From: Candidatus Magasanikiibacteriota bacterium
Lineage (GTDB): Bacteria > Patescibacteriota > Patescibacteriia > Magasanikbacterales > GWA2-37-8
Assembly (NCBI GenBank): GCA_963840935.1
Contig: CAWJAS010000001.1
Span: forward strand, 128,875-192,874
DNA length: 64,000 nt
Direction of reading: 5' to 3'
A program made the position numbers and the translations under genes. A model generated the notes under the pieces. The model was given only the letters and a program-made list of their open reading frames with translations, searched no databases and was not told where the DNA came from. Positions 965 to 53,906 of the stretch are shown in pieces; the stretch's first letter is position 1; every line of letters starts with the position of its first letter.

Positions 965-3900
965 ATGTATCGCGACACACAAAAAACTTTAAATTTTGAT
1001 GCCATTCGTTTAAAAATAGCTTCTCCCGAAGTTATTCGCGGGTGGTCGCACGGCGAAGTGCGCAAACCGGAAACAATTAATTATCGCACCCAAAAACCGG
1101 AAAAAGGCGGTTTGTTCGCCGAAGAAATTTTTGGTCCGACCAAGGATTGGGAGTGTTATTGTGGAAAATATAAAAAAATCCGCTACAAAGGAATTGTCTG
1201 CGATAAATGCGGAGTGGAAGTTACCACTTCTTTAGTCAGACGCGAGCGAATGGGTCATATTGAATTGGTTACGCCAGTGGCGCATATTTGGTTTTTACGT
1301 TCAGTTCCAAGCAAAGTCGGATTGGTTTTGGATTTGTCGGCGCAAGCTTTGGAAAAAGTTATTTATTTTGCTTCTTTTATTATTACCAATGTTGATGAAG
1401 TCGGTAAAAAGCAGACATTTGATTTGCTTAAACAAGAATTCAAAAGCAAAAAGAAGCAGATTGAGAATGAATATAATGTTGCCGTTAAAAAAGCCAACGA
1501 GGATAAAGCCGGCGCCAAAGCGATGGATGCCATTCGCGACGAGTACGAAAGAAAAACAAAAGCGCTGGAAGCTGATTTTCAAGCGGCGGAAAAAGAACTG
1601 CGTGAAATTAATGTTTTACATATTATTTCCGAAAATAAATATCAGGAGTTGTCTTTGCGCTATGGCCATTTATTTGAGGCAAAAATCGGAGCCGAATCTG
1701 TTTTTGAACTTTTATCAAGAGTTAATTTGGCAGAGACAATAAAAAAATTAAGTGAAGAACAATTGACGGTAAAAGGAGCCAAGCTCGAGCGAATAATCAG
1801 AAGAAAAAAATTATTAAAAAGTTTATTGATGAATGATATCAGACCGGAATGGATGGTTATGAAATGTATTCCGGTTATACCTCCGGATTTGCGACCAATG
1901 GTCGCGCTTGACGGTGGTCGGTTTGCTACCTCTGATTTGAATGATTTATATCGCCGTGTTATTAACCGCAACAATCGCTTGGCCAGATTAGTCGAATTAA
2001 ACGCGCCTGAAGTTATTTGCCGAAATGAAAAACGTATGTTGCAAGAAGCGGTTGATGCTTTGATTGATAACAACGCGCGCCACGCAAAAACAGTAACCGC
2101 CTCAACCGGTCAAAAGCGTCAATTGCGATCTTTGGCCGATATTTTGAAGGGGAAACAAGGCAGGTTCCGTCAGAATTTGCTCGGTAAAAGAGTTGATTAC
2201 TCCGGTCGTTCAGTTATCGTTATCGGACCGAATTTAAATATTGATGAATGCGGTTTGCCAAAAAGAATGGCTTTGGAATTGTTCAAGCCTTTTATTATGG
2301 CGCAAATTATCAAACGAGAATTGGCTCACAATGTTAGAAGTGCCGGCAGATTTATCGAATCGGAAAAAGATGAAGTTTGGGATATTTTGGAAGAATTAAC
2401 CAGAACCACCAGAGTATTGTTAAATCGCGCCCCGACCCTGCACCGTTTGGGTATTCAGGCTTTTCATCCGCGCTTGGTTGAAGGCAACGCCATTCAACTG
2501 CACCCGTTAGTGTGTACTGCTTTTAATGCCGACTTTGATGGTGACCAAATGGCTGTTCATTTACCGCTTTCCAAAGAAGCCAAGGCTGAGGCGGAAAATT
2601 TAATGGCCGCGGAAAAAAATATTTTGAAGCCTGCCACCGGTTCACCGGTAATTACGCCTAACCAGGATATCGTTCTTGGGTGTTTTTATCTTACTCGCAT
2701 CAATGAAAACAATGAGCAGAAGCGTAAGCATTTTTCCAATGAAAAAGAAGCGATGTTCGCCTATAAAAATAGAATTATCGGTTTGCAGGAATTAATAAAA
2801 GTCAGGTTTACGGATTTGACAAAATTCCCTAGCAACGAAGGTGAACTGATTGAAACAACAATCGGCAGAATGATTTTCAATTCCGTATTGCCGGATAAAA
2901 TGGCTTATTATAATGAAGTGGTTGGTAAGAAAAAATTAAGCAGTATTATCTCGTTATTTTTGGAATTCTATGGCCAAGAAAAAACCGCTTTATTTTTGGA
3001 TGAATTAAAAAATCTTGGGTTTAGATACGCCACCAAATCCGGTTATTCGTTGGGTATGGACGACTTCCCCAAGGTGGTTGAAAAAGACGCTATTATTAAA
3101 GAAGCGGAAAATACCATTCGTTTGGTTGAAGAACAATATCAGGAAGGTTTGCTCACTCAGGCCGAAAGACACGCTAAAATAATTGAAATTTGGACTGAAA
3201 CAAAAGATAAAGTTGTGGCCGGTAATCAATTTACATTAAGCAAAGATAGTTCGGTTTACGCCATGATTGAATCCGGTGCCAGAGGCTCTTGGGGGCAACT
3301 CGGCCAAGTTATAGGCATGAAAGGTCTCGTCGCTTCACCTTCGGGGGACATTATGGAATTGCCGGTTAAAGGCAACTTTAAAGAAGGGTTTAATTCGCTG
3401 GAATATTTTATTTCTTCACACGGCACCCGCAAAGGCTTGTCTGATACCGCTCTCCGAACATCGGGCGCCGGTTATCTGACCCGTCGTTTGGTGGACGTTT
3501 GCCAAGATGTGGTAGTGCTTGAAGAAGATTGTGGCGACACAATCGGAGAAATATTCACAGCCACGCAATCTCAAGAGATGGGTGAACAATTGGCCGACCG
3601 CATTTGGGGCAGATACGCCATGGAAAATATCAAAGTCGGCAACAAAATATTGGTTAAAGCAGGCGAAATTATTGACGATAAAGCCGCTCGTGAAATTGCC
3701 GCCAATAAGATTGAATCGGTTCATGTCCGTTCTGTTTTGCAATGCAAATTGCCGAAAGGAGTTTGTCAAAAGTGTTATGGTTTCGACCTGTCATACAATA
3801 AACCGGTTTCTCTCGGCACTGCTGTTGGTGTTATTGCCGCTCAATCAATCGGCGAGCCCGGCACCCAGCTTACTTTGAGAACTTTTCACACTGGTGGTGT

Positions 3901-4834
3901 GGCCGGTTCGGATATCACTCAAGGTTTGCCTCGAGTTGAAGAATTATTTGAATGTCGCAATCCCAAACACCAGGCGACTCTTGCTGATGTTGAAGGCACG
4001 ATTGAAATCGAAGACGCTGACGGAAAAATTATTACTTCGCCTTCAGGCAAAAAAATATTTGAAGGACGCCGTGGCCAAAAAATAATCAAAATTCTTTTCG
4101 AAGGCATGGATGAAACAAAAATTAAATTTACGGCTGAAGACGAATTGCTGGTGAAAGATGGCGAGATGATTGATACCGATGCCGTAATTTTGGTGCGCGG
4201 TTCATCCGGCGATGAAATCAAAGCCAAATACCCGAGCCAGATTAAAGTTGGCAAAAATACCGTGACGCTGTCATATAATGGCCCAAAAGTTCGTGAATAT
4301 ATTATTCCACTCGGGTATAAGTTGTATGTCAAAAACGGCCAGAAAGTGGAAAAAGGCGAGCAACTCACGGATGGTTCGGTAAATTTGCATGAATTATTTG
4401 AATTAAGAGGAAGACCCGCCGTACAAAGATATATTTTGGAAGAAGTCCAGAATATTTATTCTTCGCAAGGTCAGAAAGTAAACGACAAACACATGGAATT
4501 GATTATCAGGCAAATGTTCAGTCGTGTTTATGTGGAGGATGCGGGTGATACTGATTTATTGCCGGGTGAAGTGGTTGAAAAAGCGCAGTTGGAATTTTCT
4601 AATCGGCAGACTTTGAAAGATGGCGGTAAAGAATCAGCCGGTCGGGAATTATTGCTTGGTATTTCGCGCGTTTCCCTCTCCACGCAAAGCTTTTTGTCGG
4701 CAGCGTCGTTTCAAGAAACCGCCCGCGTGCTTATTAACACGGCTATAACCGGCAAGATTGATTACCTGGAAGGATTAAAAGAAAATGTAATTATCGGTCG
4801 CTTAATTCCATCGGGTACGGGTTTTCGAGGGTAA
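965..4834 (+). CDS. rpoC: DNA-directed RNA polymerase subunit beta-prime
   Basis: 1289 aa. Zinc-finger CYCGKYKKIRYKGIVCDKCG near the N-terminus. Catalytic NADFDGDQMAVHLPLS motif. Sits immediately downstream of rpoB. Confidence 0.97.
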   Translation: MYRDTQKTLNFDAIRLKIASPEVIRGWSHGEVRKPETINYRTQKPEKGGLFAEEIFGPTKDWECYCGKYKKIRYKGIVCDKCGVEVTTSLVRRERMGHIELVTPVAHIWFLRSVPSKVGLVLDLSAQALEKVIYFASFIITNVDEVGKKQTFDLLKQEFKSKKKQIENEYNVAVKKANEDKAGAKAMDAIRDEYERKTKALEADFQAAEKELREINVLHIISENKYQELSLRYGHLFEAKIGAESVFELLSRVNLAETIKKLSEEQLTVKGAKLERIIRRKKLLKSLLMNDIRPEWMVMKCIPVIPPDLRPMVALDGGRFATSDLNDLYRRVINRNNRLARLVELNAPEVICRNEKRMLQEAVDALIDNNARHAKTVTASTGQKRQLRSLADILKGKQGRFRQNLLGKRVDYSGRSVIVIGPNLNIDECGLPKRMALELFKPFIMAQIIKRELAHNVRSAGRFIESEKDEVWDILEELTRTTRVLLNRAPTLHRLGIQAFHPRLVEGNAIQLHPLVCTAFNADFDGDQMAVHLPLSKEAKAEAENLMAAEKNILKPATGSPVITPNQDIVLGCFYLTRINENNEQKRKHFSNEKEAMFAYKNRIIGLQELIKVRFTDLTKFPSNEGELIETTIGRMIFNSVLPDKMAYYNEVVGKKKLSSIISLFLEFYGQEKTALFLDELKNLGFRYATKSGYSLGMDDFPKVVEKDAIIKEAENTIRLVEEQYQEGLLTQAERHAKIIEIWTETKDKVVAGNQFTLSKDSSVYAMIESGARGSWGQLGQVIGMKGLVASPSGDIMELPVKGNFKEGFNSLEYFISSHGTRKGLSDTALRTSGAGYLTRRLVDVCQDVVVLEEDCGDTIGEIFTATQSQEMGEQLADRIWGRYAMENIKVGNKILVKAGEIIDDKAAREIAANKIESVHVRSVLQCKLPKGVCQKCYGFDLSYNKPVSLGTAVGVIAAQSIGEPGTQLTLRTFHTGGVAGSDITQGLPRVEELFECRNPKHQATLADVEGTIEIEDADGKIITSPSGKKIFEGRRGQKIIKILFEGMDETKIKFTAEDELLVKDGEMIDTDAVILVRGSSGDEIKAKYPSQIKVGKNTVTLSYNGPKVREYIIPLGYKLYVKNGQKVEKGEQLTDGSVNLHELFELRGRPAVQRYILEEVQNIYSSQGQKVNDKHMELIIRQMFSRVYVEDAGDTDLLPGEVVEKAQLEFSNRQTLKDGGKESAGRELLLGISRVSLSTQSFLSAASFQETARVLINTAITGKIDYLEGLKENVIIGRLIPSGTGFRG

Positions 4835-36972: not shown

Positions 36973-37650
36973 ATGTCCAAAAGAATGACGGCGCTACGCG
37001 CCAAGATAGACGCCAATCGCGTTTATACCGTTGACGAGGCCTTTGCTTTGCTCACGGAAACTTCATCGGTTAAGTTTGACGCCTCAGTAGAGGTGCACGC
37101 CAATTTGGGTATTGACCCCAAAAAAGGCGACCAGCAAGTTAGAGCAACGATTTTAATGCCGAATGGAACAGGTAAAGTATTGAAAGTCGCCGCGTTTGTG
37201 TCACCGGAAAAAGAAAAAGAAGCAAAAGAGGCCGGAGCGGATTTTGTTTATGGTGAAGAAGAGATTAAAAAAATTAAAGACACCGGCAAGATTGAATTTG
37301 ATATTGCCGTGACCACACCAGACATGATGCCAAAGCTTGCCGCGGTGGCAAAAGTGCTTGGCCCAAAAGGATTGATGCCGAATGCAAAAACAGAAACGGT
37401 TAGCCCGAATGTGAAAAAAATGATTGAGGATTTGAAAAAAGGCAAGGCCTCTTTCAAAAATGATGATACCGGCAATATTCATATTGCCATCGGCAAAGTC
37501 AGCTTTGGAACGGAGAAATTAAAAGAAAATTATTTGGCGTTTGTTGAAATGTTGAACCAGATTAAACCGGCCGGACAAAAAGGAACATACATCAAATCGC
37601 TTCATATCTGCGCCAGCATGGGACCTTCCATCAAAATCGCAGAAAAATAA
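36973..37650 (+). CDS. rplA: 50S ribosomal protein L1
   Basis: VDEAFALLTE, FDASVEVHANLGIDPKKGDQQVR, VLGPKGLMPN. Confidence 0.95.
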   Translation: MSKRMTALRAKIDANRVYTVDEAFALLTETSSVKFDASVEVHANLGIDPKKGDQQVRATILMPNGTGKVLKVAAFVSPEKEKEAKEAGADFVYGEEEIKKIKDTGKIEFDIAVTTPDMMPKLAAVAKVLGPKGLMPNAKTETVSPNVKKMIEDLKKGKASFKNDDTGNIHIAIGKVSFGTEKLKENYLAFVEMLNQIKPAGQKGTYIKSLHICASMGPSIKIAEK

Positions 37651-37714
37651 TCAGACAAAAAATAAATTAAAAAATCCGGGTTTACGCTCGGATTTTTTTG
37701 TATGTTTTAAGAAT

Positions 37715-37912
37715 GTTATCGCCGGTGTTCTAATCTTCGCATAGAGCCTGCTCTCGACCGAAGTCTGGTACACGTTCCGGAAGCTCGGCTTGCTCGCCGA
37801 CCCAGCCGTCCAGATCCGTGCGGTCTAGCCACCGAGTTAAGGCCTTCACCCTGTTCCTTCATGGGCAACCCCCGACAAGACTAGTCTCTTCCGGGGGTTG
37901 AATTTTTTCAAT
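37715..37912 (+). ncRNA. GC-rich structured RNA element (~190 nt) ending in an intrinsic terminator; candidate riboswitch leader or small ncRNA
   Basis: Strong compositional contrast with AT-rich flanks. No ORF. Internal hairpins AGAGCctgCTCT and TCGGCttgctcGCCGA. 3-prime CAACCCCCGacaagactagtctcttcCGGGGGTTG plus TTTTTT at 37866-37912. Sits 40 nt upstream of the 37950 gene. Confidence 0.45.
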
Positions 37913-37949
37913 TTAATTATTCGAAATACAATGTTATAATTATATATAT

Positions 37950-38405
37950 ATGAATATGCAATTACGAAAAAAAACTGATAAAAATGTCCTTACTGTTCTT
38001 GGTGTCCTCAATGATGAAATTCATGGTGATGCGCGATCTGCCATGAACAAGTTGACCAAAGATTACACAATGACTTGGATATATCGCCATCCAAAAAACG
38101 GAAAACTTTTTCCTCGTACAAAAAAAGATATAAAGGCCGGCCTTAAAAAAGTCTACCCAACCAAAGGGAGGCATTATGATATAAAAAATATCGCCACGGG
38201 GAATAACGTTGTTATAGTGGAATTGGTGGAGAGCTACCCCGATCCAAAAACCAAAAAAGTGTACCGAACGCCGTTAGTTTTGGTGCTTGAGATGAAAAAA
38301 GGAAAAATTCAAACGGGTCGCCATTATTGTGACCCGAATTTGTCGTATCTTCATTTAACAAAAAAACAAGTGGCGAATGCTTACGTCAAAACAAGAAAAG
38401 TGTGA
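37950..38405 (+). CDS. Hypothetical protein (possibly NTF2-like fold)
   Basis: 151 aa, basic. No confident family. Confidence 0.4.
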   Translation: MNMQLRKKTDKNVLTVLGVLNDEIHGDARSAMNKLTKDYTMTWIYRHPKNGKLFPRTKKDIKAGLKKVYPTKGRHYDIKNIATGNNVVIVELVESYPDPKTKKVYRTPLVLVLEMKKGKIQTGRHYCDPNLSYLHLTKKQVANAYVKTRKV

Positions 38406-38518
38406 GTGTTTTGAGTAATTTTAAATATTTTATATAAAAATTCTCGGCTTCGGGCTGCGAGCTTTTTGTTTTGAAAGTGCCACCACAGTATTTAATCGCG
38501 AAATTCTTAACAAATATT

Positions 38519-38545
38519 AAAGAGGCGTCGGGTGACGCCTCTTTG
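38519..38545. repeat. Hairpin AAGAGGCGtcgggtgaCGCCTCTTT, left boundary of the GC-rich island; direct copy of the hairpin at 39792-39822
   Basis: Compare AAAGAGGCGTCGGGTGACGCCTCTTT with AAAGAGGCGCCACGAGGCGCCTTT. Confidence 0.6.
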
Positions 38546-38576
38546 GGATGGAATGATCTGGGATGAAAAGAGCGGG

Positions 38577-39662
38577 CTACTCGCCGTTCGCGGCGATGGC
38601 GGCTTCGACCTCCTCGGCCGAAACCACCGACTCCTGGCGACCGACGAGGCGGCGCGTGCGCTTGCCGCTATTCACGTGGTCGAGGAGCAGGGTGTAGAGG
38701 ATCTTGTGCGCCGTACCGCCCGCGCTGGCCAGGTTGCGTACCTGCGGGTCGTTGATCGGGAATTGGGCGATCTTGCGCGCCAGATCCCTTTCGATGTAGA
38801 GGCGCTTGTCCCGCCAGAAGGTGGTGTGGCGCGAGAGCAGGAGCGCCAGGCACATCAGGAAGGTGAGGCGCAGGTGCGTCGCGCCCTCTTTGAAGGTGAC
38901 GACCCTGATGCCCCAGGCCTTGTCGACCAGGTCGAAGAAGGTCCTGATGTTCTCGCGCAGGATGTTGCGCCCGACGCGGTTGTGGATCACTTCGATGCCA
39001 CGACCGAGTTCCCGCCAGCCGTTGCTGAGACCGGGACCGACATGCGAGTGCAGGGCGCCGATGACCTTGGCGAAGGACACGGCGCTGATCAGCTGCTCGC
39101 GCGTCTGGCGCTGGCACCAGGATACGCGGTTGACGAGCACGAAGTCCGGGTCGAAGAGCGTCAGGTTGTAGATCGTCTCGATGGCTGGGATGTCCGCCCG
39201 CATGTTGCGCAGGAGGATGTTCGAGTTGACCTTGGTCCGGTCGGCGTTGAGGATGCGGAAGCGCTCGCGCTCCCACTCCTCGTTGGAGTTGAAGTGCACC
39301 GTGGCTCCGAGCCGGGGTTTGGCGTCCTCGTAGCGGCGCATCATCTCGCGGGCCGCGGTTACCCGTTGGAGCCCGTCGATGATGTAGACGTCGTTCGGCA
39401 GGACGAAGACGCCCGGCTCGCGCTCGCGGAAGTTCCCTCCCCGGGCCCCGAGATCGATGTCGGGAATGGGGTCGCCCTTGACCATCGCGTCGATAATCTC
39501 GTTGATGGTCTGAATGGGGAGAACCTCGCGCTGGTACTCGGCCTGCTTGAACAGACCGAAGGAGTCCGGATCGATCACCCCGCGTAGGATGATCGTGCCT
39601 CCGGACACCTCGTCCAGTGCTCCGTGGTACAGCTTCACACAGTCCCTGTCCTTGTTGCCCAT
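38577..39662 (-). CDS. ParB/sulfiredoxin-fold DGQHR/DndB-like (DUF262-like) domain protein, GC-rich foreign gene
   Basis: VYIIDGLQRVTAARE core resembling the DGQHR/DGQQR motif of DndB/DUF262 ParB-like nuclease domains. ~360 aa as in DndB. Start taken at MGNKDRD with RBS aaaggagcccaacATG. The plus-strand ORF 38532-39587 is the antisense shadow. Confidence 0.5.
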   Translation of the reverse strand: MGNKDRDCVKLYHGALDEVSGGTIILRGVIDPDSFGLFKQAEYQREVLPIQTINEIIDAMVKGDPIPDIDLGARGGNFREREPGVFVLPNDVYIIDGLQRVTAAREMMRRYEDAKPRLGATVHFNSNEEWERERFRILNADRTKVNSNILLRNMRADIPAIETIYNLTLFDPDFVLVNRVSWCQRQTREQLISAVSFAKVIGALHSHVGPGLSNGWRELGRGIEVIHNRVGRNILRENIRTFFDLVDKAWGIRVVTFKEGATHLRLTFLMCLALLLSRHTTFWRDKRLYIERDLARKIAQFPINDPQVRNLASAGGTAHKILYTLLLDHVNSGKRTRRLVGRQESVVSAEEVEAAIAANGE

Positions 39663-39791
39663 GTTGGGCTCCTTTCTTGTGCGGGGTATGGCTCCCGAAG
39701 GATAGCTACCCGCACATGTTGTAAGAAACGCGTTCAAAGTAACACATTTTGCGCTTTTTGTCAAGACACCAGGAGCCGACGTCGGTTTGTA

Positions 39792-39822
39792 TAAAAAGAG
39801 GCGCCACGAGGCGCCTTTACGT
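39792..39822. repeat. Hairpin AAAGAGGCGccacgagGCGCCTTT, right boundary of the GC-rich island; also acts as the minus-strand terminator for the 39837-40190 gene
   Basis: See 38519-38545. Confidence 0.6.
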
Positions 39823-39836
39823 ATTTTTAATGATTT

Positions 39837-40190
39837 TTATGTCATTTTTTTAAATCTTACGGTGAAAATGGGCTCGAATTTATTGTTATATTCATCGGTT
39901 ATTTCCACGCTTTCACCTTTCATTAATTTGGTCATGGCCGCGTCCGACAAAAGCATGCTATCGGATTTAATATCAAGCGCGTATTCTTCCATTTTTTCCA
40001 ATTCACCGGAAAAATCCGCTCTGATGGCCGCTTCAATTTGCTGCTTTTTTATTCTTGATGCTTTTATTTTGTCGAGAATTTCCTGATACTCGGCCGATGA
40101 CATTAAAGCTTCTTTGAGGGCGCTTCTGATATCTTTTTGTTTCTTTTTTGTTTCTTGCAGGCGGTTGTAAACTTCTTGGAGATTGGCCAT
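39837..40190 (-). CDS. Hypothetical charged protein
   Basis: 117 aa. No motif recognised. Confidence 0.45.
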   Translation of the reverse strand: MANLQEVYNRLQETKKKQKDIRSALKEALMSSAEYQEILDKIKASRIKKQQIEAAIRADFSGELEKMEEYALDIKSDSMLLSDAAMTKLMKGESVEITDEYNNKFEPIFTVRFKKMT

Positions 40191-50593: not shown

Positions 50594-51235
50594 ATGAGTC
50601 GGAAAGACAAGAAGGAATGGACGCTGGAGACACTGCTCTCGGTGGTCGGGTTCTTGTTCGAACTGTTGCGCGTGGTCGTCAACGCTCTGCGTGCCCGCAA
50701 TGGTACGGTGGACGACCTGCGTCGCCTGATCAGGGAGCCGAAGCTCGTCGATGATGTCTTTGACCTTATCGTCGGCGCGAAGAAACTCATCGGCTTCCAG
50801 GTCACCTACGATCAAGCCAAGGGATTGACGGAACTCATCAGGCGCGCCCTCGGTCCAAAAAACGTTAATAACTTCAATCACGACATGATGCCGTCGCGGT
50901 TCCCGCTCAAGGGGAGGAATGTCCGGACGGTTAACGTCCGGGTCGAACCTTTCCTTTCCGGTGAGACAGGCGAAGAGGCCGCGAAGCGCCTGACCGCCAC
51001 CGGCCACACCCTGGCCAACACCGGCGACTTGGTCGGCTTCCTCCATGAACATCCTAAGGAGGTGGAAAATTGGAGCTGGGTCATTTCTTTGAGCGGTGAC
51101 TCCCGTTGGAAGGACCCGAACGGCTATATCCTCGTGCCGTGCGCCCGCGTGAATGGTGCGTATCGCTTCTTTCGCCTTGACGACTTCGATGAAATATTCG
51201 GCTTCGACCGTGGCGTCCTCGTCCTTTGTGAGTAG
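50594..51235 (+). CDS. GC-rich hypothetical protein A (paralog family with B and C)
   Basis: RBS gaaggagatagaatcATG. G/C-rich third positions. C-terminal block RVNGAYRFFRLDDFDEIFGFDRGVLV. Confidence 0.55.
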   Translation: MSRKDKKEWTLETLLSVVGFLFELLRVVVNALRARNGTVDDLRRLIREPKLVDDVFDLIVGAKKLIGFQVTYDQAKGLTELIRRALGPKNVNNFNHDMMPSRFPLKGRNVRTVNVRVEPFLSGETGEEAAKRLTATGHTLANTGDLVGFLHEHPKEVENWSWVISLSGDSRWKDPNGYILVPCARVNGAYRFFRLDDFDEIFGFDRGVLVLCE

Positions 51236-51749: not shown

Positions 51750-51950
51750 ATGCGATTATTGTAAAATAATCGCTGAATTTTGTAAATATTAATTCCGTCG
51801 TTCACGAGCGACTGGATTGACAAAACAACAAAAAAATGTAATATTTTGTTTGACTGTTCATTTTAAAATCCAAAAAATCCCGCCAATTCGGCGGGTTCCT
51901 GGCCCGGGATTAGGGCATGGAGGCGGGCGATAACAAGCCCGAGGAGAGCA

Positions 51951-52562
51951 ATGTCGAAACCGTTGGAGGAAGTGAAGAAACTGACCATTGGCCAGCTGGC
52001 CGCGCTCGTGCACGCCATCGGCGGGCTTGTCGCGGTCAAGGCAATTCTTCGTGACAAGGGTCTGGCCAAACGGGTGGCCGAGTTCATCTGTAATGACGAG
52101 AAGGGAATCGTTAAAGTTGTCGGCATGTTCACGGCATTCGTGGATTACGCCAACCCGTCGTACCAAGAGCTCAAGTCGGCCTTCGATTGGGTCGATGACT
52201 GGTATGATCGGGCGATGTTCAAGACAATCGACATCTGTAAATCGGTTAGTCGTGAGCCCTGTGTAGTGGGGTTCGTCTACGTCCATATGGACCGCACCGC
52301 TTCCAGTAATGAGGTTTACGCCACGATGGAGACACGTGGATTGCGTCCGGCACTATACGAGGAACTCCTGGCGTTCGCCAAGGCCTACCCTGACGAGCAG
52401 AGGAAGTTTCATATTATCGCTCTTGGATCTTTCTGTGTGGGTGTGAGCGGTGGTCGCTACGTGGCGTACCTCAGCGATGTTGGCTATGGTCGTCGCCTGC
52501 GCCTGGATTTTTTTGAGCACGACTGGTTTGACAATTGCCGTTTTCTCGCTGTCAGCAAGTAA
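51951..52562 (+). CDS. GC-rich hypothetical protein B (paralog family)
   Basis: RBS ggaggagagcaATG. C-terminal block SDVGYGRRLRLDFFEHDWFDNCRFLAV. Confidence 0.55.
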   Translation: MSKPLEEVKKLTIGQLAALVHAIGGLVAVKAILRDKGLAKRVAEFICNDEKGIVKVVGMFTAFVDYANPSYQELKSAFDWVDDWYDRAMFKTIDICKSVSREPCVVGFVYVHMDRTASSNEVYATMETRGLRPALYEELLAFAKAYPDEQRKFHIIALGSFCVGVSGGRYVAYLSDVGYGRRLRLDFFEHDWFDNCRFLAVSK

Positions 52563-53195: not shown

Positions 53196-53906
53196 ATGAA
53201 CAGAAAAGTGTCGTTCAATGCCATTGCCCGTTTTATGGTGGAGCTTTCGGACGAGGAACAGCGGGCGATAGTGGAGAATCCCGGGCTCGTTCGGTTTTTT
53301 TTGGCTGATTTGGCCCGCGAGAAGGAGGATAACACCTTCTTCACCCACATCGCCGACAAGGACGCCCCGGCGCATCTCATAGACACGGTCGCCAAGTGGC
53401 GCAAGCTCGCGAGCGACATGGGCTACACCGGTCCGGTGCTCTGGCTGGTCAAAGCCGGCTTCACCCTGAAGAAGCATGCCCCGCTCGCTGGTCCCTGCTA
53501 CGAACAGTTCAAGTACCTGCAGGACTGGATCTTTCAGAACTACGAACCTACGGTCGACTCTACGGTGTTCTTCGTCCCTCGCATCATCGCGACGGGGAAG
53601 GACGCCGAGGAGCAGAAGCAGGTTCTCTCCAAGCTTCGCGCGAAGTACAAACTGTCGGCAAACCACTGCGACTCGTTCGGTTCGGTCGCACTCATCAGCG
53701 GTCTCATACTCGCGCACTTCAAGCGTACGGGCGAGCGCGCCCCTCTCAACGACGAGTGGGTGCGCACCAACACCTTCGACTCGGTCGGCGACCGGCTCTA
53801 CCTCGGCGGCTTCAACGAGTATGGGCTCAGCTGCGGCCGCCACTGGAGTGTCATCAGCCGTGGCCGACTCGGGGCTTTCCCGCTGGGGATCGAGTCGCTC
53901 GTCTAG
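53196..53906 (+). CDS. GC-rich hypothetical protein C (paralog family)
   Basis: RBS gaaaggagaacgcaaATG. C-terminal block DSVGDRLYLGGFNEYGLSCGRHWSV. Minus-strand ORF 53043-54056 is its antisense shadow. Confidence 0.55.
   Translation: MNRKVSFNAIARFMVELSDEEQRAIVENPGLVRFFLADLAREKEDNTFFTHIADKDAPAHLIDTVAKWRKLASDMGYTGPVLWLVKAGFTLKKHAPLAGPCYEQFKYLQDWIFQNYEPTVDSTVFFVPRIIATGKDAEEQKQVLSKLRAKYKLSANHCDSFGSVALISGLILAHFKRTGERAPLNDEWVRTNTFDSVGDRLYLGGFNEYGLSCGRHWSVISRGRLGAFPLGIESLV

What the first reader, a model, noticed from the sequence alone, without database searches (positions are those of the whole stretch)
38420..39830. GC-rich single-gene island encoding a ParB/DGQHR-like (DndB/DUF262-type) protein, bracketed by copies of the same hairpin
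A ~1.4-kb segment with strongly elevated GC sits between AT-rich genes. Its only gene (38577-39662, minus) has the IIDGLQR core of ParB-like DGQHR/DGQQR nuclease-fold domains found in DndB and type IV restriction-like defence proteins, with a good host-type RBS. The island is flanked by near-identical hairpins in direct orientation (AAAGAGGCGTCGGGTGACGCCTCTTT at 38519; AAAGAGGCGCCACGAGGCGCCTTT at 39792). These double as terminators. This is a plausible att-like duplication of an insertion target. It is a candidate horizontally acquired defence or DNA-modification-sensing gene, and an orphan: no dndCDE or partner genes are nearby.
Basis: partly seen in the sequence, partly recalled or inferred. 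Interest (0 to 1): 0.65.

Follow-up and report, generated by a model that had tools for sequence, protein, structure and literature searches.

The report
Phage-derived ParB-like gene cassette insertion
A 1.28-kb GC-rich, self-contained one-gene cassette encoding an unnamed ParB-like protein was recently inserted at a terminator hairpin in a Patescibacteria (CPR) chromosome, and the same cassette type recurs across many CPR genomes while its relatives sit natively in phage replication/recombination regions.

Summary
Window 38543-39818 is a 1,276-bp island at 64% GC (GC3 0.90), in a host at 41% GC (GC3 0.42). It is absent from syntenic close relatives. The empty site carries one terminator hairpin; the window has two related copies, 77% identical, spaced exactly 1,276 nt.

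The island is a complete expression unit: promoter, structured 5' leader, RBS, one 361-aa gene (38577-39662, minus strand) and a terminator.

The protein has a confident ParB/Srx-fold N-terminal domain with DUF262/DGQHR-like motifs (YQRE, IIDGLQR, F..LN). It scores below the curated cut-offs of PF03235, TIGR03187 and DndB. Its all-alpha C-terminal domain has no PDB fold match and no recognisable nuclease.

The family is compact, about 515 clusters at 50% identity, and unnamed. In CPR genomes it is a solitary cassette at varying sites, almost always GC3-richer than the host, with covarying leader RNA motifs absent from Rfam. Several copies are flanked by 17-69-nt direct repeats. In phage and prophage contigs the gene is operonic, matches local composition, and lies in replication/recombination modules.

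Horizontal acquisition and the hairpin duplication are well supported. A defence role, or DndB or type IV restriction membership, is not. No dnd-like partner was found near any copy.

The parts
38543..39818 (.). The island: a 1,276-bp segment absent from the syntenic relative L089. It holds one hairpin copy, promoter, leader, gene and 3' tail.
   Evidence: MAFFT alignment of the window with L085, L086 and L089. GC profile. Spacing of direct repeat D4 is 1276 nt.
39795..39818 (-). Upstream hairpin copy. It is the intrinsic terminator of the host 117-aa gene (39837-40190) and marks the 5' edge of the island.
   Evidence: Terminator scan. Fold -14.6 kcal/mol, z = -3.5. Repeat D4/I1.
39736..39764 (-). 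Promoter-like site inside the island: -35 TTGACA (39764-39759), a 17-nt spacer, then extended -10 TGTTACTTT (-10 hexamer 39741-39736).
   Evidence: Read from the sequence. The same TTGACA-N17-TGnTAnnnT layout lies upstream of many family copies. It is not listed by the consensus scan because the -10 matches only 3 of 6 positions. Function is inferred.
39680..39715 (-). Type-1 5' leader hairpin: outer stem, conserved GCUA/AGCUA internal region, inner UCC/GGA stem. It ends about 4 nt before the RBS.
   Evidence: Covariance model R1 hit, 32.8 bits, E = 9e-6, the only hit in the 64-kb window. Covariation on 26 sequences. Fold -19.1 kcal/mol, z = -4.0. No Rfam match.
39669..39675 (-). Shine-Dalgarno AAAGGAG, 6 nt before the ATG.
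   Evidence: Sequence.
38577..39662 (-). CDS of 361 aa. The N-terminal domain is ParB/Srx-fold, DUF262/DGQHR-like (about aa 1-160). The C-terminal domain is a novel all-alpha fold (about aa 163-346). The invariant H.NSGKRT.R motif is followed by an acidic tail.
   Evidence: ORF list. 678 homologs. Alignment A1. AF2 pLDDT 91.4 for the full protein and 91.6 for the C-terminal domain. Fold searches.
38519..38544 (-). Downstream hairpin copy. It is the intrinsic terminator of the island gene, and host sequence resumes immediately after it.
   Evidence: Terminator scan, 11 pairs followed by a T-rich tail. Fold -18.3 kcal/mol, z = -6.9. Alignment to the L089 hairpin and flank.

Best explanation
What it is: a horizontally acquired, self-contained ('moron-like') expression cassette in a Patescibacteria (CPR) chromosome. 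It consists of a promoter, a structured 5' leader, an RBS, one gene and a terminator.

Shown: the cassette entered at the intrinsic terminator of the upstream gene, and a related copy of that hairpin now sits on each side.

Shown: the gene belongs to a compact, unnamed family of ParB/Srx-fold proteins. The family is closest to the DUF262 (GmrS) and DGQHR (DndB/DpdB) branches.

Shown: in temperate phages and prophages of GC-richer bacteria the family gene is operonic, compositionally native and lies in the early replication/recombination region.

Inferred: that phage/MGE pool is the source of the GC-rich CPR copies. Once equipped with a CPR-type promoter and leader, the cassette spread among CPR lineages.

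Inferred mechanism of the product: the N-terminal domain binds and probably hydrolyses an NTP through the YQR and DG-x-QR motifs and works as a nucleotide-gated switch on DNA, as in ParB, DndB, DpdB, SspE and BrxU. The novel helical C-terminal domain and the basic motif would provide DNA or partner contacts. No separate nuclease module is present.

Inferred regulation: the hairpin abutting the RBS controls translation or mRNA stability, possibly through binding by the protein itself.

Inferred biological role: a phage-derived DNA-handling or exclusion factor kept by the CPR host. The insertion mechanism is not known. It probably involved illegitimate or short-homology recombination at the hairpin.

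The confidence given (0.6) is for the whole statement. The acquired-cassette part alone I put at about 0.9, and the functional part at about 0.35.
For: Composition and indel:
- GC profile and codon positions.
- Clean 1,276-nt gap and a single hairpin in syntenic L089.
- Absence in L088, L090/91 and L092/93.
- The same junctions in independent assemblies.
- Repeat spacing of 1276 nt.

Expression unit:
- Terminators.
- Promoter and RBS read from the sequence.
- Leader model R1 hits only upstream of family genes: 27 hits with E < 0.02 across 973 kb, all on the gene strand.
- Leader covariation: 90.8% of cells paired against 80.0% in shuffles (0 of 500 shuffles reach it); covariation score 0.38 against 0.19 (0 of 500).
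- A second leader type has compensatory changes in 9 of 11 pairs.

Protein:
- AF2 pLDDT 91.4.
- ParB/Noc/PadC/KorB fold.
- Viral DUF262, DndB-like and ParB/Srx matches.
- Weak but recurrent GmrSD_N, DGQHR and NsnA hits across members.
- The invariant motifs match the published DUF262 signature (I/V)(I/V)DGQQRLTT (PMC4619093).

Family behaviour:
- 515 clusters at 50% identity among 1.84 billion proteins.
- Varying contexts with no conserved neighbour in most CPR loci.
- GC excess confined to the gene, from about 50 nt upstream to about 50 nt downstream.
- Gene GC3 0.75 against host 0.49 in 56 CPR loci, p = 9e-11.
- Flanking direct repeats of 17-69 nt in 5 of 60 loci, against none of about 700 non-cognate pairs at that score.

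Phage home:
- Acidobacterial prophage module with PDDEXK_1, AAA_24, DUF669 and ERCC4.
- 38 IMG/VR loci where gene GC matches flank GC for most.
- A second phage group with YqaJ, ERF, HNH, a sub-threshold RusA hit and GcrA; others with Prim-Pol and AAA_25.
- No leader in the viral copies.

Literature: orphan ParB-CTPase folds are common on mobile elements and bind CTP, ATP or GTP; DndB is an ATP-dependent repressor (PMC12704722).
Against: - No biochemical function is shown. NTP binding, DNA binding and any nuclease activity are inferred from fold and motifs only.
- The sequence link to DUF262/DGQHR is below every curated cut-off.
- The two window hairpins are only 77% identical, so they are not a fresh target-site duplication. 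One copy may have arrived with the cassette.
- CPR cassettes share CPR-specific leaders and are 40-60% diverged, yet keep high GC3. That fits poorly with long residence in AT-rich CPR genomes.
- The NJ trees are star-like and have no support values, so the direction and number of phage-to-CPR transfers are not resolved.
- Some IMG/VR contigs (L094, L095) were not verified as phage.
Confidence: 0.6

Rival explanations
1. One reading: an orphan DndB/DUF262-type defence gene. It would act as a type IV restriction-like or DNA-modification-sensing protein that protects the CPR cell from phage, moved passively like other defence genes.
For: The fold and motifs are those of the DUF262/DGQHR branch. 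There are weak hits to GmrSD_N, DGQHR, DpdB and the defence components NsnA, DzbA and PD-T4-2_A. Sporadic distribution, foreign composition and insertion polymorphism are typical of defence genes.
Against: All curated thresholds are failed, and the window protein has no PADLOC hit. There is no DUF1524/HNH or other recognisable nuclease; the C-terminal domain has no PDB match. No dnd, ssp, dpd or brx partner lies within about 6 kb in about 80 loci. In phages the gene sits in replication/recombination operons, not in defence islands.
Confidence: 0.25
2. A self-mobilising one-gene element. The ParB-like protein would itself be the nickase or transposase that inserts the cassette at hairpins and intergenic sites through widely staggered cuts, giving long target duplications of variable length.
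For: The cassette encodes only this protein and is found at many unrelated intergenic sites. No integrase or transposase family was conserved next to the cassette. Direct repeats of 17-69 nt flank several copies, and the window has a duplicated hairpin. Some ParB/Srx-fold proteins have nuclease activity (PMC4619093).
Against: The 80 genome loci all come from different records, so no genome was seen with two copies. There are no terminal inverted repeats or conserved cassette ends. Repeat lengths are irregular and most loci have none. Phage copies are ordinary operon genes. No ParB-fold transposase is known (own knowledge).
Confidence: 0.1
3. A native CPR gene whose high GC is imposed by selection, for example on mRNA structure or codon choice, rather than by foreign origin.
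For: The GC3 excess is a family-wide property kept across 40-60% protein divergence. The Arg/Lys ratio is also high, median 1.65 against 0.82 in host ORFs.
Against: The island is missing from syntenic relatives and has precise boundaries. Family members are sporadic: 89 confirmed matches among one genome each of 185,579 species. In GC-rich hosts and on most viral contigs the gene simply matches its surroundings. Sister copies show graded GC3 consistent with amelioration, for example L017 0.90 against L021 0.71, and L011 0.66 against L008 0.56 and L010 0.54.
Confidence: 0.03
4. An artefact: an assembly chimera, or the real gene is the 351-aa antisense ORF 38532-39587 on the plus strand.
For: A gene caller chose the antisense ORF in the near-identical locus L085. 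Long antisense ORFs are expected at 64% GC.
Against: Identical junctions occur in separate assemblies. The minus-strand product has 678 homologs, invariant motifs and a pLDDT 91 model. The RBS, promoter and terminators are all on the minus strand.
Confidence: 0.01

Closest known systems
DUF262 / GmrS N-terminal domain of GmrSD-type type IV restriction enzymes (PF03235; BrxU, SspE N-terminal domains)
   Same: Both have the ParB/Srx fold. The motif layout is shared: YQR, then (I/V)(I/V)DG-x-QR-x-T, then F..LN. It is the best Pfam hit, and 23 of 50 members hit it. Viral structures annotated GmrSD_N align at TMq up to 0.52.
   Different: Scores are below the gathering threshold, 16.8 bits against 33.2. 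The motif is DGLQR, not DGQQR. There is no DUF1524/His-Me nuclease domain; instead there is a novel all-alpha C-terminal domain. Foldseek matches to BrxU and SspE themselves are insignificant, E = 0.23 and 0.83.
DGQHR-domain proteins: DndB (PF14072, TIGR03187) and DpdB
   Same: Similar size, about 360 aa, with a ParB-like N-terminal domain and a helical remainder. 33 of 50 members give weak TIGR03187 hits, best 1.1e-6; 2 hit DndB and 2 hit DpdB. BFVD 'DNA-sulfur modification-associated' models are among the fold hits. DndB is an ATP-dependent regulator (PMC12704722), a plausible functional analogue.
   Different: It fails the curated cut-off, 14.9 bits against 58.85. The signature is DGLQR, not DGQHR. 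No dnd or dpd genes are adjacent in any locus.
Orphan ParB-CTPase-fold proteins of mobile elements (survey PMC12704722), for example KorB, Noc, PadC and Osa
   Same: These are the top PDB fold matches. They are also orphans without ParA and are associated with phages and mobile elements.
   Different: No HTH domain, ParB C-terminal dimerisation domain or parS-type context was recognised. Sequence similarity to any solved structure is nil.
Phage 'morons': autonomous promoter-gene-terminator units of deviant composition inserted between conserved genes (own knowledge)
   Same: It has its own promoter, its own terminator and one gene. Its composition is strongly deviant. It shows presence/absence polymorphism between otherwise syntenic genomes.
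   Different: It sits in a bacterial (CPR) chromosome, not in a prophage. It carries a conserved structured leader, and the same gene family recurs as a cassette in many hosts.

Membership tests
DUF262 / GmrSD_N (PF03235) | Pfam score at or above the gathering threshold (33.2 bits) | tested here: not met
   16.8 bits, E = 0.0076. 23 of 50 family members hit it, best E = 7.4e-5; the window protein is below the threshold and Pfam hits precomputed for the homologs list none.
DUF262 / GmrSD_N (PF03235) | Signature (I/V)(I/V)DGQQRLTT with a ParB/Srx fold | tested here: inconclusive
   The fold criterion is met. The motif is (Y/F)I(I/V)DGLQR(V)(T/S)A: D, G, the second Q and R are invariant, and the first Q is replaced by L. 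The published motif is from PMC4619093.
GmrSD-type type IV restriction enzyme | C-terminal DUF1524 / His-Me finger (HNH) nuclease domain | tested here: not met
   No Pfam hit beyond aa 147. The C-terminal domain model (pLDDT 91.6) is all-alpha, and its best Foldseek PDB match has E = 4.
DGQHR domain / DndB (TIGR03187, PF14072) | Model score at or above the curated cut-off (58.85 bits) | tested here: not met
   14.9 bits. 33 of 50 members give weak hits, best 1.1e-6; the window protein is below the cut-off. 2 of 50 hit PF14072 at E >= 0.04.
DGQHR domain / DndB | Adjacent dndCDE (or dpdA, pbe, ssp) partner genes | tested here: not met
   Neighbour clustering of about 80 loci within 4 kb found no such conserved partner, and the called genes within 6 kb in L001-L004 show none. 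The window flanks encode a 117-aa coiled-coil-like protein and a weak SnoaL-like protein. The rest of the genome is not available.
ParB/Srx (ParB-CTPase) fold superfamily | The N-terminal domain adopts the ParB/sulfiredoxin fold | tested here: met
   Foldseek probability 0.95-1.0 to Noc (7ng0), pNOB8 ParB-N (5k5d), PadC (6ryk), ParB (7bnr) and KorB (8qa9). 35 BFVD matches at E <= 1e-3. The model has pLDDT 91.4.
ParB/Srx (ParB-CTPase) fold superfamily | Binds or hydrolyses an NTP | not testable with these tools
   Only the conserved Q99 and R100 of DGLQR, and YQR, are seen.
Insertion sequence / transposon | Transposase or integrase gene, terminal inverted repeats, fixed-length target duplication | tested here: not met
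   No transposase or integrase domain in the product. There are no terminal repeats other than the palindromic hairpins themselves. Flanking repeats range from 17 to 69 nt and most loci have none. The 80 genome loci come from different records, so no genome was seen with two copies.
Phage moron-like autonomous cassette | Own promoter and terminator, deviant composition, presence/absence between syntenic genomes | tested here: met
   Terminator. Promoter at sequence level only. Composition. Empty sites. The location is a CPR chromosome, not a prophage.
Rfam RNA families (for the 5' leader) | Match to any curated covariance model | tested here: not met
   No match on the leader at E <= 10 in the window or E <= 0.1 in five loci.

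The most novel reading that the evidence does not exclude
The cassette is a previously unrecognised kind of minimal mobile element of CPR bacteria. It would be a one-gene unit whose ParB/DUF262-like product, under control of a dedicated leader RNA (two covarying classes not in Rfam), mediates its own insertion at terminator hairpins or intergenic DNA, producing long target duplications of variable length. Frequent movement would explain why copies stay compositionally foreign in almost every host.
Probability: 0.1. Interest if true: 0.85.

Novelty: new variant of a known kind. Interest (0 to 1): 0.55.

Why it matters
CPR/Patescibacteria have tiny genomes, and how they gain genes is poorly known. 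Here a clean filled-site versus empty-site pair shows a recent single-gene gain at a terminator hairpin. The same unnamed ParB-fold family has entered, or spread through, dozens of CPR lineages as a ready-to-express cassette, while its relatives live in phage replication/recombination modules.

This gives several concrete, testable leads:
- a route from phage or mobile-element gene pools into CPR chromosomes;
- a new, sharply bounded branch of the ParB/DUF262/DGQHR fold with a novel C-terminal domain;
- two candidate cis-regulatory RNA motifs;
- an unexplained one-way GC3 excess.

It also flags an annotation hazard. In one near-identical public locus the gene caller chose the antisense ORF of this GC-rich gene.

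Tried and rejected
- PDB sequence and profile searches found nothing relevant.
- Foldseek of the isolated C-terminal domain against the PDB found nothing, best E = 4.
- An exact look-up of the window protein in the contig index returned 'not on record'.
- An exact 33-nt search for the window leader in JGI metagenome contigs gave 0 hits, so no near-identical copy in another context was found.
- Rfam gave no match on either leader type.
- Integron-cassette reading rejected from the sequence alone: the unit has its own promoter, its ends match the host terminator seen at the empty site, and nothing suggests an array. attC cores and an integrase were not searched for.
- Classical homing-endonuclease reading judged unlikely: insertion sites are unrelated between lineages.
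- I looked for conserved cassette termini across six loci with flanking repeats and found none.
- I looked in the window for a homolog of the partner genes seen in some clades and found none.
- A literature search for a described CPR ParB-like GC-rich cassette found nothing specific.
Full report
**1. The observation**

- GC rises from about 0.40 to 0.64-0.65 between 38.6 and 39.6 kb and falls back on both sides.
- Only one other stretch of the 64-kb window, 53-54 kb, reaches a comparable value.
- The excess is mainly at third codon positions. The gene has GC1/2/3 of 0.63/0.40/0.90, against 0.51/0.35/0.42 for the host's long ORFs.

The only credible gene is 38577-39662 on the minus strand. It is 361 aa, starts with ATG and is preceded by AAAGGAG. 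The 351-aa ORF on the opposite strand is a by-product of high GC.

Each reads as an intrinsic terminator on the minus strand.
- 38544-38519 ends the island gene.
- 39818-39795 ends the upstream host gene 39837-40190.

The two hairpins are 77% identical over 22 nt and share AAAGAGGCG. They lie 1,276 nt apart. Their similarity alone would not stand out from background: the alignment score is 9.5, against a non-cognate mean of 9.0.

**2. Empty site**

The host is a Patescibacteria (CPR) bacterium. Homologs of the upstream 117-aa protein come from Patescibacteria and Magasanikbacteria assemblies. I fetched the contexts of the closest ones.
- L085 and L086 (94% identical neighbour protein) carry the island at 99.1% nucleotide identity. 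L087, a 1-kb contig with the same neighbour, carries the upstream junction and the start of the gene. These are independent assemblies, which excludes a chimera.
- L089 (89%) keeps both flanking genes but has no island.
- The alignment shows a clean gap of 1,276 nt, window 38543-39818.
- At that point L089 has one hairpin, AGAGGCGTTACTTGGCGCCTCTTT, with homologous flanks on both sides.
- Three more related lineages (L088, L090/91, L092/93) also lack the island.

The island is therefore a lineage-specific insertion, and the hairpin is single at the empty site and double at the filled one.

One caveat applies. The two copies differ at about a quarter of positions, partly by compensatory changes. 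They are either not a fresh target duplication, or one copy came in with the cassette.

**3. Anatomy of the island**

Reading the minus strand from the upstream hairpin, the parts are:
- a TTGACA -35 box (39764-39759);
- a 17-nt spacer and an extended -10, TGTTACTTT;
- a 36-nt hairpin (39715-39680);
- the RBS;
- the gene;
- 32 nt of tail;
- the terminator.

It is a complete transcription unit.

**4. The protein**

Curated libraries do not claim it.
- PF03235 (GmrSD_N/DUF262) scores 16.8 bits, against a cut-off of 33.2.
- TIGR03187 (DGQHR) scores 14.9 bits, against 58.85.
- PADLOC gives nothing.
- PHROG 1033 'ParB-like' gives E = 1.8e-5.

The weak hits are systematic across the family. Of 50 members, 23 hit GmrSD_N, 33 hit DGQHR, 2 hit DndB, 2 hit DpdB and 17 hit the Menshen component NsnA.

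An AlphaFold model built on 50 homologs is confident, pLDDT 91.4.
- The N-terminal domain matches ParB, Noc, PadC and KorB structures with probability 0.95-1.0.
- It also matches viral models annotated GmrSD_N, DndB-like or ParB/Srx, down to E = 1e-8 and up to TMq 0.52.

The invariant residues form YQRE, PD(I/V)(E/D)LG.RG, IIDGLQR and ERF.ILN. This is the layout published for DUF262, whose signature is (I/V)(I/V)DGQQRLTT (PMC4619093).

The C-terminal half, modelled alone at pLDDT 91.6, is all-alpha and has no Foldseek match in the PDB, best E = 4. There is no DUF1524/HNH module.

The protein ends with an invariant H.NSGKRT.R motif and an acidic tail.

Conclusion: it is a member of the ParB/Srx fold, nearest the DUF262/DGQHR branches. 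It is not a member of PF03235, TIGR03187 or DndB by their own criteria, and it is not a GmrSD-type restriction enzyme.

**5. The family**

A full HMMER scan of 1.84 billion representative proteins finds only 515 clusters at E <= 1e-3, of which 356 are at E <= 1e-30. The family is small and sharply bounded. The word-indexed search finds 678 proteins. All are 'hypothetical', and those with names come from CPR lineages.

I collected 80 loci from species-representative genomes. Most are CPR: Saccharibacteria, Paceibacterota, Peribacteria, Kaiser-, Taylor-, Nomura- and Uhrbacteria. One shallow clade comes from Acidobacteriota.

**6. Behaviour in CPR genomes**

The gene sits among unrelated housekeeping genes, with no conserved neighbour in most loci.

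There are two exceptions.
- A Saccharibacteria subclade has an overlapping downstream partner of 220-300 aa.
- Some copies with the second leader type have a small downstream ORF.

Neither has a homolog in the window.

The GC excess is a family trait.
- Averaged over 35 loci, it starts about 50 nt before the start codon and ends about 50 nt after the stop.
- In 56 CPR loci the median gene GC3 is 0.75, against 0.49 for host ORFs.
- 47 loci exceed the host by more than 0.1, and only 2 are lower (Wilcoxon p = 9e-11).
- In GC-rich CPR hosts and in Acidobacteriota the gene simply matches its surroundings.
- Sister copies show graded values, for example 0.90 against 0.71. This is what amelioration of an incoming GC-rich gene would give.

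Five of 60 CPR loci have flanking direct repeats of 17-69 nt that score above every one of about 700 non-cognate comparisons.
- The upstream copy lies 117-190 nt before the start codon, just outside the promoter.
- The downstream copy lies 12-290 nt after the stop.
- Several repeats include or abut terminator hairpins.
- The repeats are unrelated between loci, and no conserved cassette termini exist.

This argues against a site-specific att core and against a classical transposase.

**7. A conserved leader**

Upstream of many CPR copies lies a hairpin with an outer stem and a conserved GCUA...AGCUA region. Within that region the GC dinucleotides pair with each other. There is also an inner UCCC/GGGA stem.

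On 26 sequences:
- 90.8% of cells pair, against 80.0% in shuffles (0 of 500 shuffles reach it);
- the covariation score is 0.38, against 0.19 (0 of 500);
- structures with the 3' partner slid by 1-3 columns score at most 0.13;
- 7 of 10 pairs show compensatory changes.

A covariance model searched over 973 kb hits 27 sites with E < 0.02. All are immediately upstream of family genes on the gene strand. The one hit in the window is 39680-39715, at 32.8 bits.

G-U pairs are tolerated in the sense orientation, which fits an RNA.

A second, unrelated leader has the form CUCGRA-CAUAAG-hairpin-ACUGC-UYCGAG. It marks another protein clade and also covaries, with compensatory changes in 9 of 11 pairs.

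Neither leader is in Rfam. The leader type follows the protein tree, so promoter, leader and gene travel together.

**8. Behaviour in phages**

The acidobacterial copies are operonic. They follow a ParB-N-like gene and precede PDDEXK_1, AAA_24, DUF669, ERCC4 and a long ORF (not scanned) that reads like a RecD-type helicase. That is a prophage recombination/replication module.

A scan of IMG/VR found 38 more loci.
- In most of them the gene's GC equals that of its flanks to within a few points; L115, L118 and L130 deviate by 0.06-0.10. Values range from 0.43 to 0.65.
- The gene is preceded by coding sequence.
- No leader is detected.
- One group repeats the acidobacterial module.
- Another group has YqaJ, ERF, HNH and GcrA, plus a RusA hit just below Pfam's cut-off.
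- Others have Prim-Pol or AAA_25.

In an unsupported NJ tree the viral copies are interspersed among CPR clades.

The simplest reading is that the family's compositional home is the early region of temperate phages and mobile elements of GC-richer bacteria. The CPR cassettes would derive from that pool. The direction of transfer remains an inference.

**9. How it most likely works**

Shown:
- the fold;
- the conserved nucleotide-motif residues;
- the absence of a recognisable nuclease module;
- the autonomous expression signals;
- the insertion polymorphism;
- the phage context.

Inferred: the N-terminal domain is an NTP-binding and NTP-hydrolysing switch acting on DNA.
- Orphan ParB-CTPase folds bind CTP, ATP or GTP.
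- DndB is an ATP-dependent DNA-binding repressor (PMC12704722).
- In GmrS the DGQQR motif is assigned to NTP binding and hydrolysis (PMC4619093).
- That DpdB, SspE and BrxU use the same domain as NTPases is my own knowledge, not checked here.

The C-terminal domain and basic motif would give DNA or partner contacts. The acidic tail suggests interaction with replication or recombination proteins.

The leader hairpin ends about 4 nt before the RBS. It probably sets translation or mRNA stability, perhaps by binding the protein.

In CPR hosts the likeliest role is a phage-derived exclusion or DNA-handling factor. I hold this loosely.

The insertion mechanism is unknown. Short-homology or illegitimate recombination at hairpins would fit the irregular repeats.

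**10. What remains unexplained**

CPR cassettes share CPR-type promoters and leaders and are 40-60% diverged from each other. That suggests long spread within CPR. Yet they are almost never GC-poorer than their hosts.

Three possibilities remain open:
- repeated input from a GC-rich pool;
- residence mainly in GC-rich CPR lineages;
- very fast turnover.

The most novel reading that the evidence allows is that the protein mobilises its own cassette. The evidence does not favour it.

**11. Verdict**

It is unproven about defence, and wrong if taken as membership of DndB, DUF262 or type IV restriction.

The feature is a new, unnamed branch of a known fold. It is carried by a moron-like cassette with new candidate RNA leaders. 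Interest is moderate.

Noticed in passing
window 39680-39715 (minus strand); L001-L083 just upstream of family genes: Type-1 5' leader hairpin specific to this gene family. It has strong covariation and a covariance model (R1) that hits only upstream of family genes. It is not in Rfam.
   Followed up: yes
L023, L024, L025, L027, L030, L031, L033, L071, L081, L084, L051, L066 (about 40-100 nt upstream of the gene): A second, unrelated leader motif, CUCGRA-CAUAAG-hairpin-ACUGC-UYCGAG, marks another clade of the family. 9 of 11 pairs show compensatory changes. It is often followed by CCAACC.AGGAG.
   Followed up: partly
window 38532-39587 (plus strand); L085 5306-6361: A 351-aa antisense ORF runs through the GC-rich gene. 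In the near-identical public locus L085 the gene caller annotated this antisense ORF instead of the real gene.
   Followed up: partly
window 50600-51200, 51800-52400 (ORF 51951-52562) and 53300-53900 (ORF about 53196-53906): Three more GC-raised patches (0.52-0.64) lie just upstream of rpsL and rpsG. The two ORFs tested have no Pfam hit. They may be further foreign insertions.
   Followed up: partly
window 37650-39837, compared with L088, L089, L090, L092: The interval between the 117-aa gene and rplA is variable among relatives. The weakly SnoaL-like 151-aa gene (37950-38405) is absent in L088, L090 and L092. L089 has an extra 168-aa gene, and L092 has desulfoferrodoxin there. The interval looks like a local hotspot for gene gain and loss.
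   Followed up: partly
L028, L032, L036, L040, L044, L047, L048, L055, L077, L080, L083 (immediately downstream of the family gene): A Saccharibacteria subclade carries an overlapping, co-directional partner gene of 220-300 aa, also GC-raised, with no Pfam hit. L025 and L030 share a homologous downstream ORF of about 50 aa, and L033 and L066 have ORFs of similar size without detected similarity. None has a homolog in the window.
   Followed up: partly
L030 2933-3005 and 4706-4776: In this locus the family gene (3298-4386) lies between two tRNA genes, a classic integration neighbourhood.
   Followed up: no
L018 5835 and 7350; L073 3303 and 4634; L022 647 and 1916; L084 5796 and 7129; L001 5815 and 7125: Direct repeats of 17-69 nt bracket the cassette in other genomes. 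In L073 the repeat includes the promoter region of the downstream gyrB-like gene, so the cassette and the host gene each have a copy.
   Followed up: partly
family alignment A1, C-terminal end (window protein aa 329-361): An invariant H.NSGKRT.R motif is followed by a variable acidic tail in nearly all members. This recalls the acidic tails of single-strand-binding and phage replication proteins.
   Followed up: no
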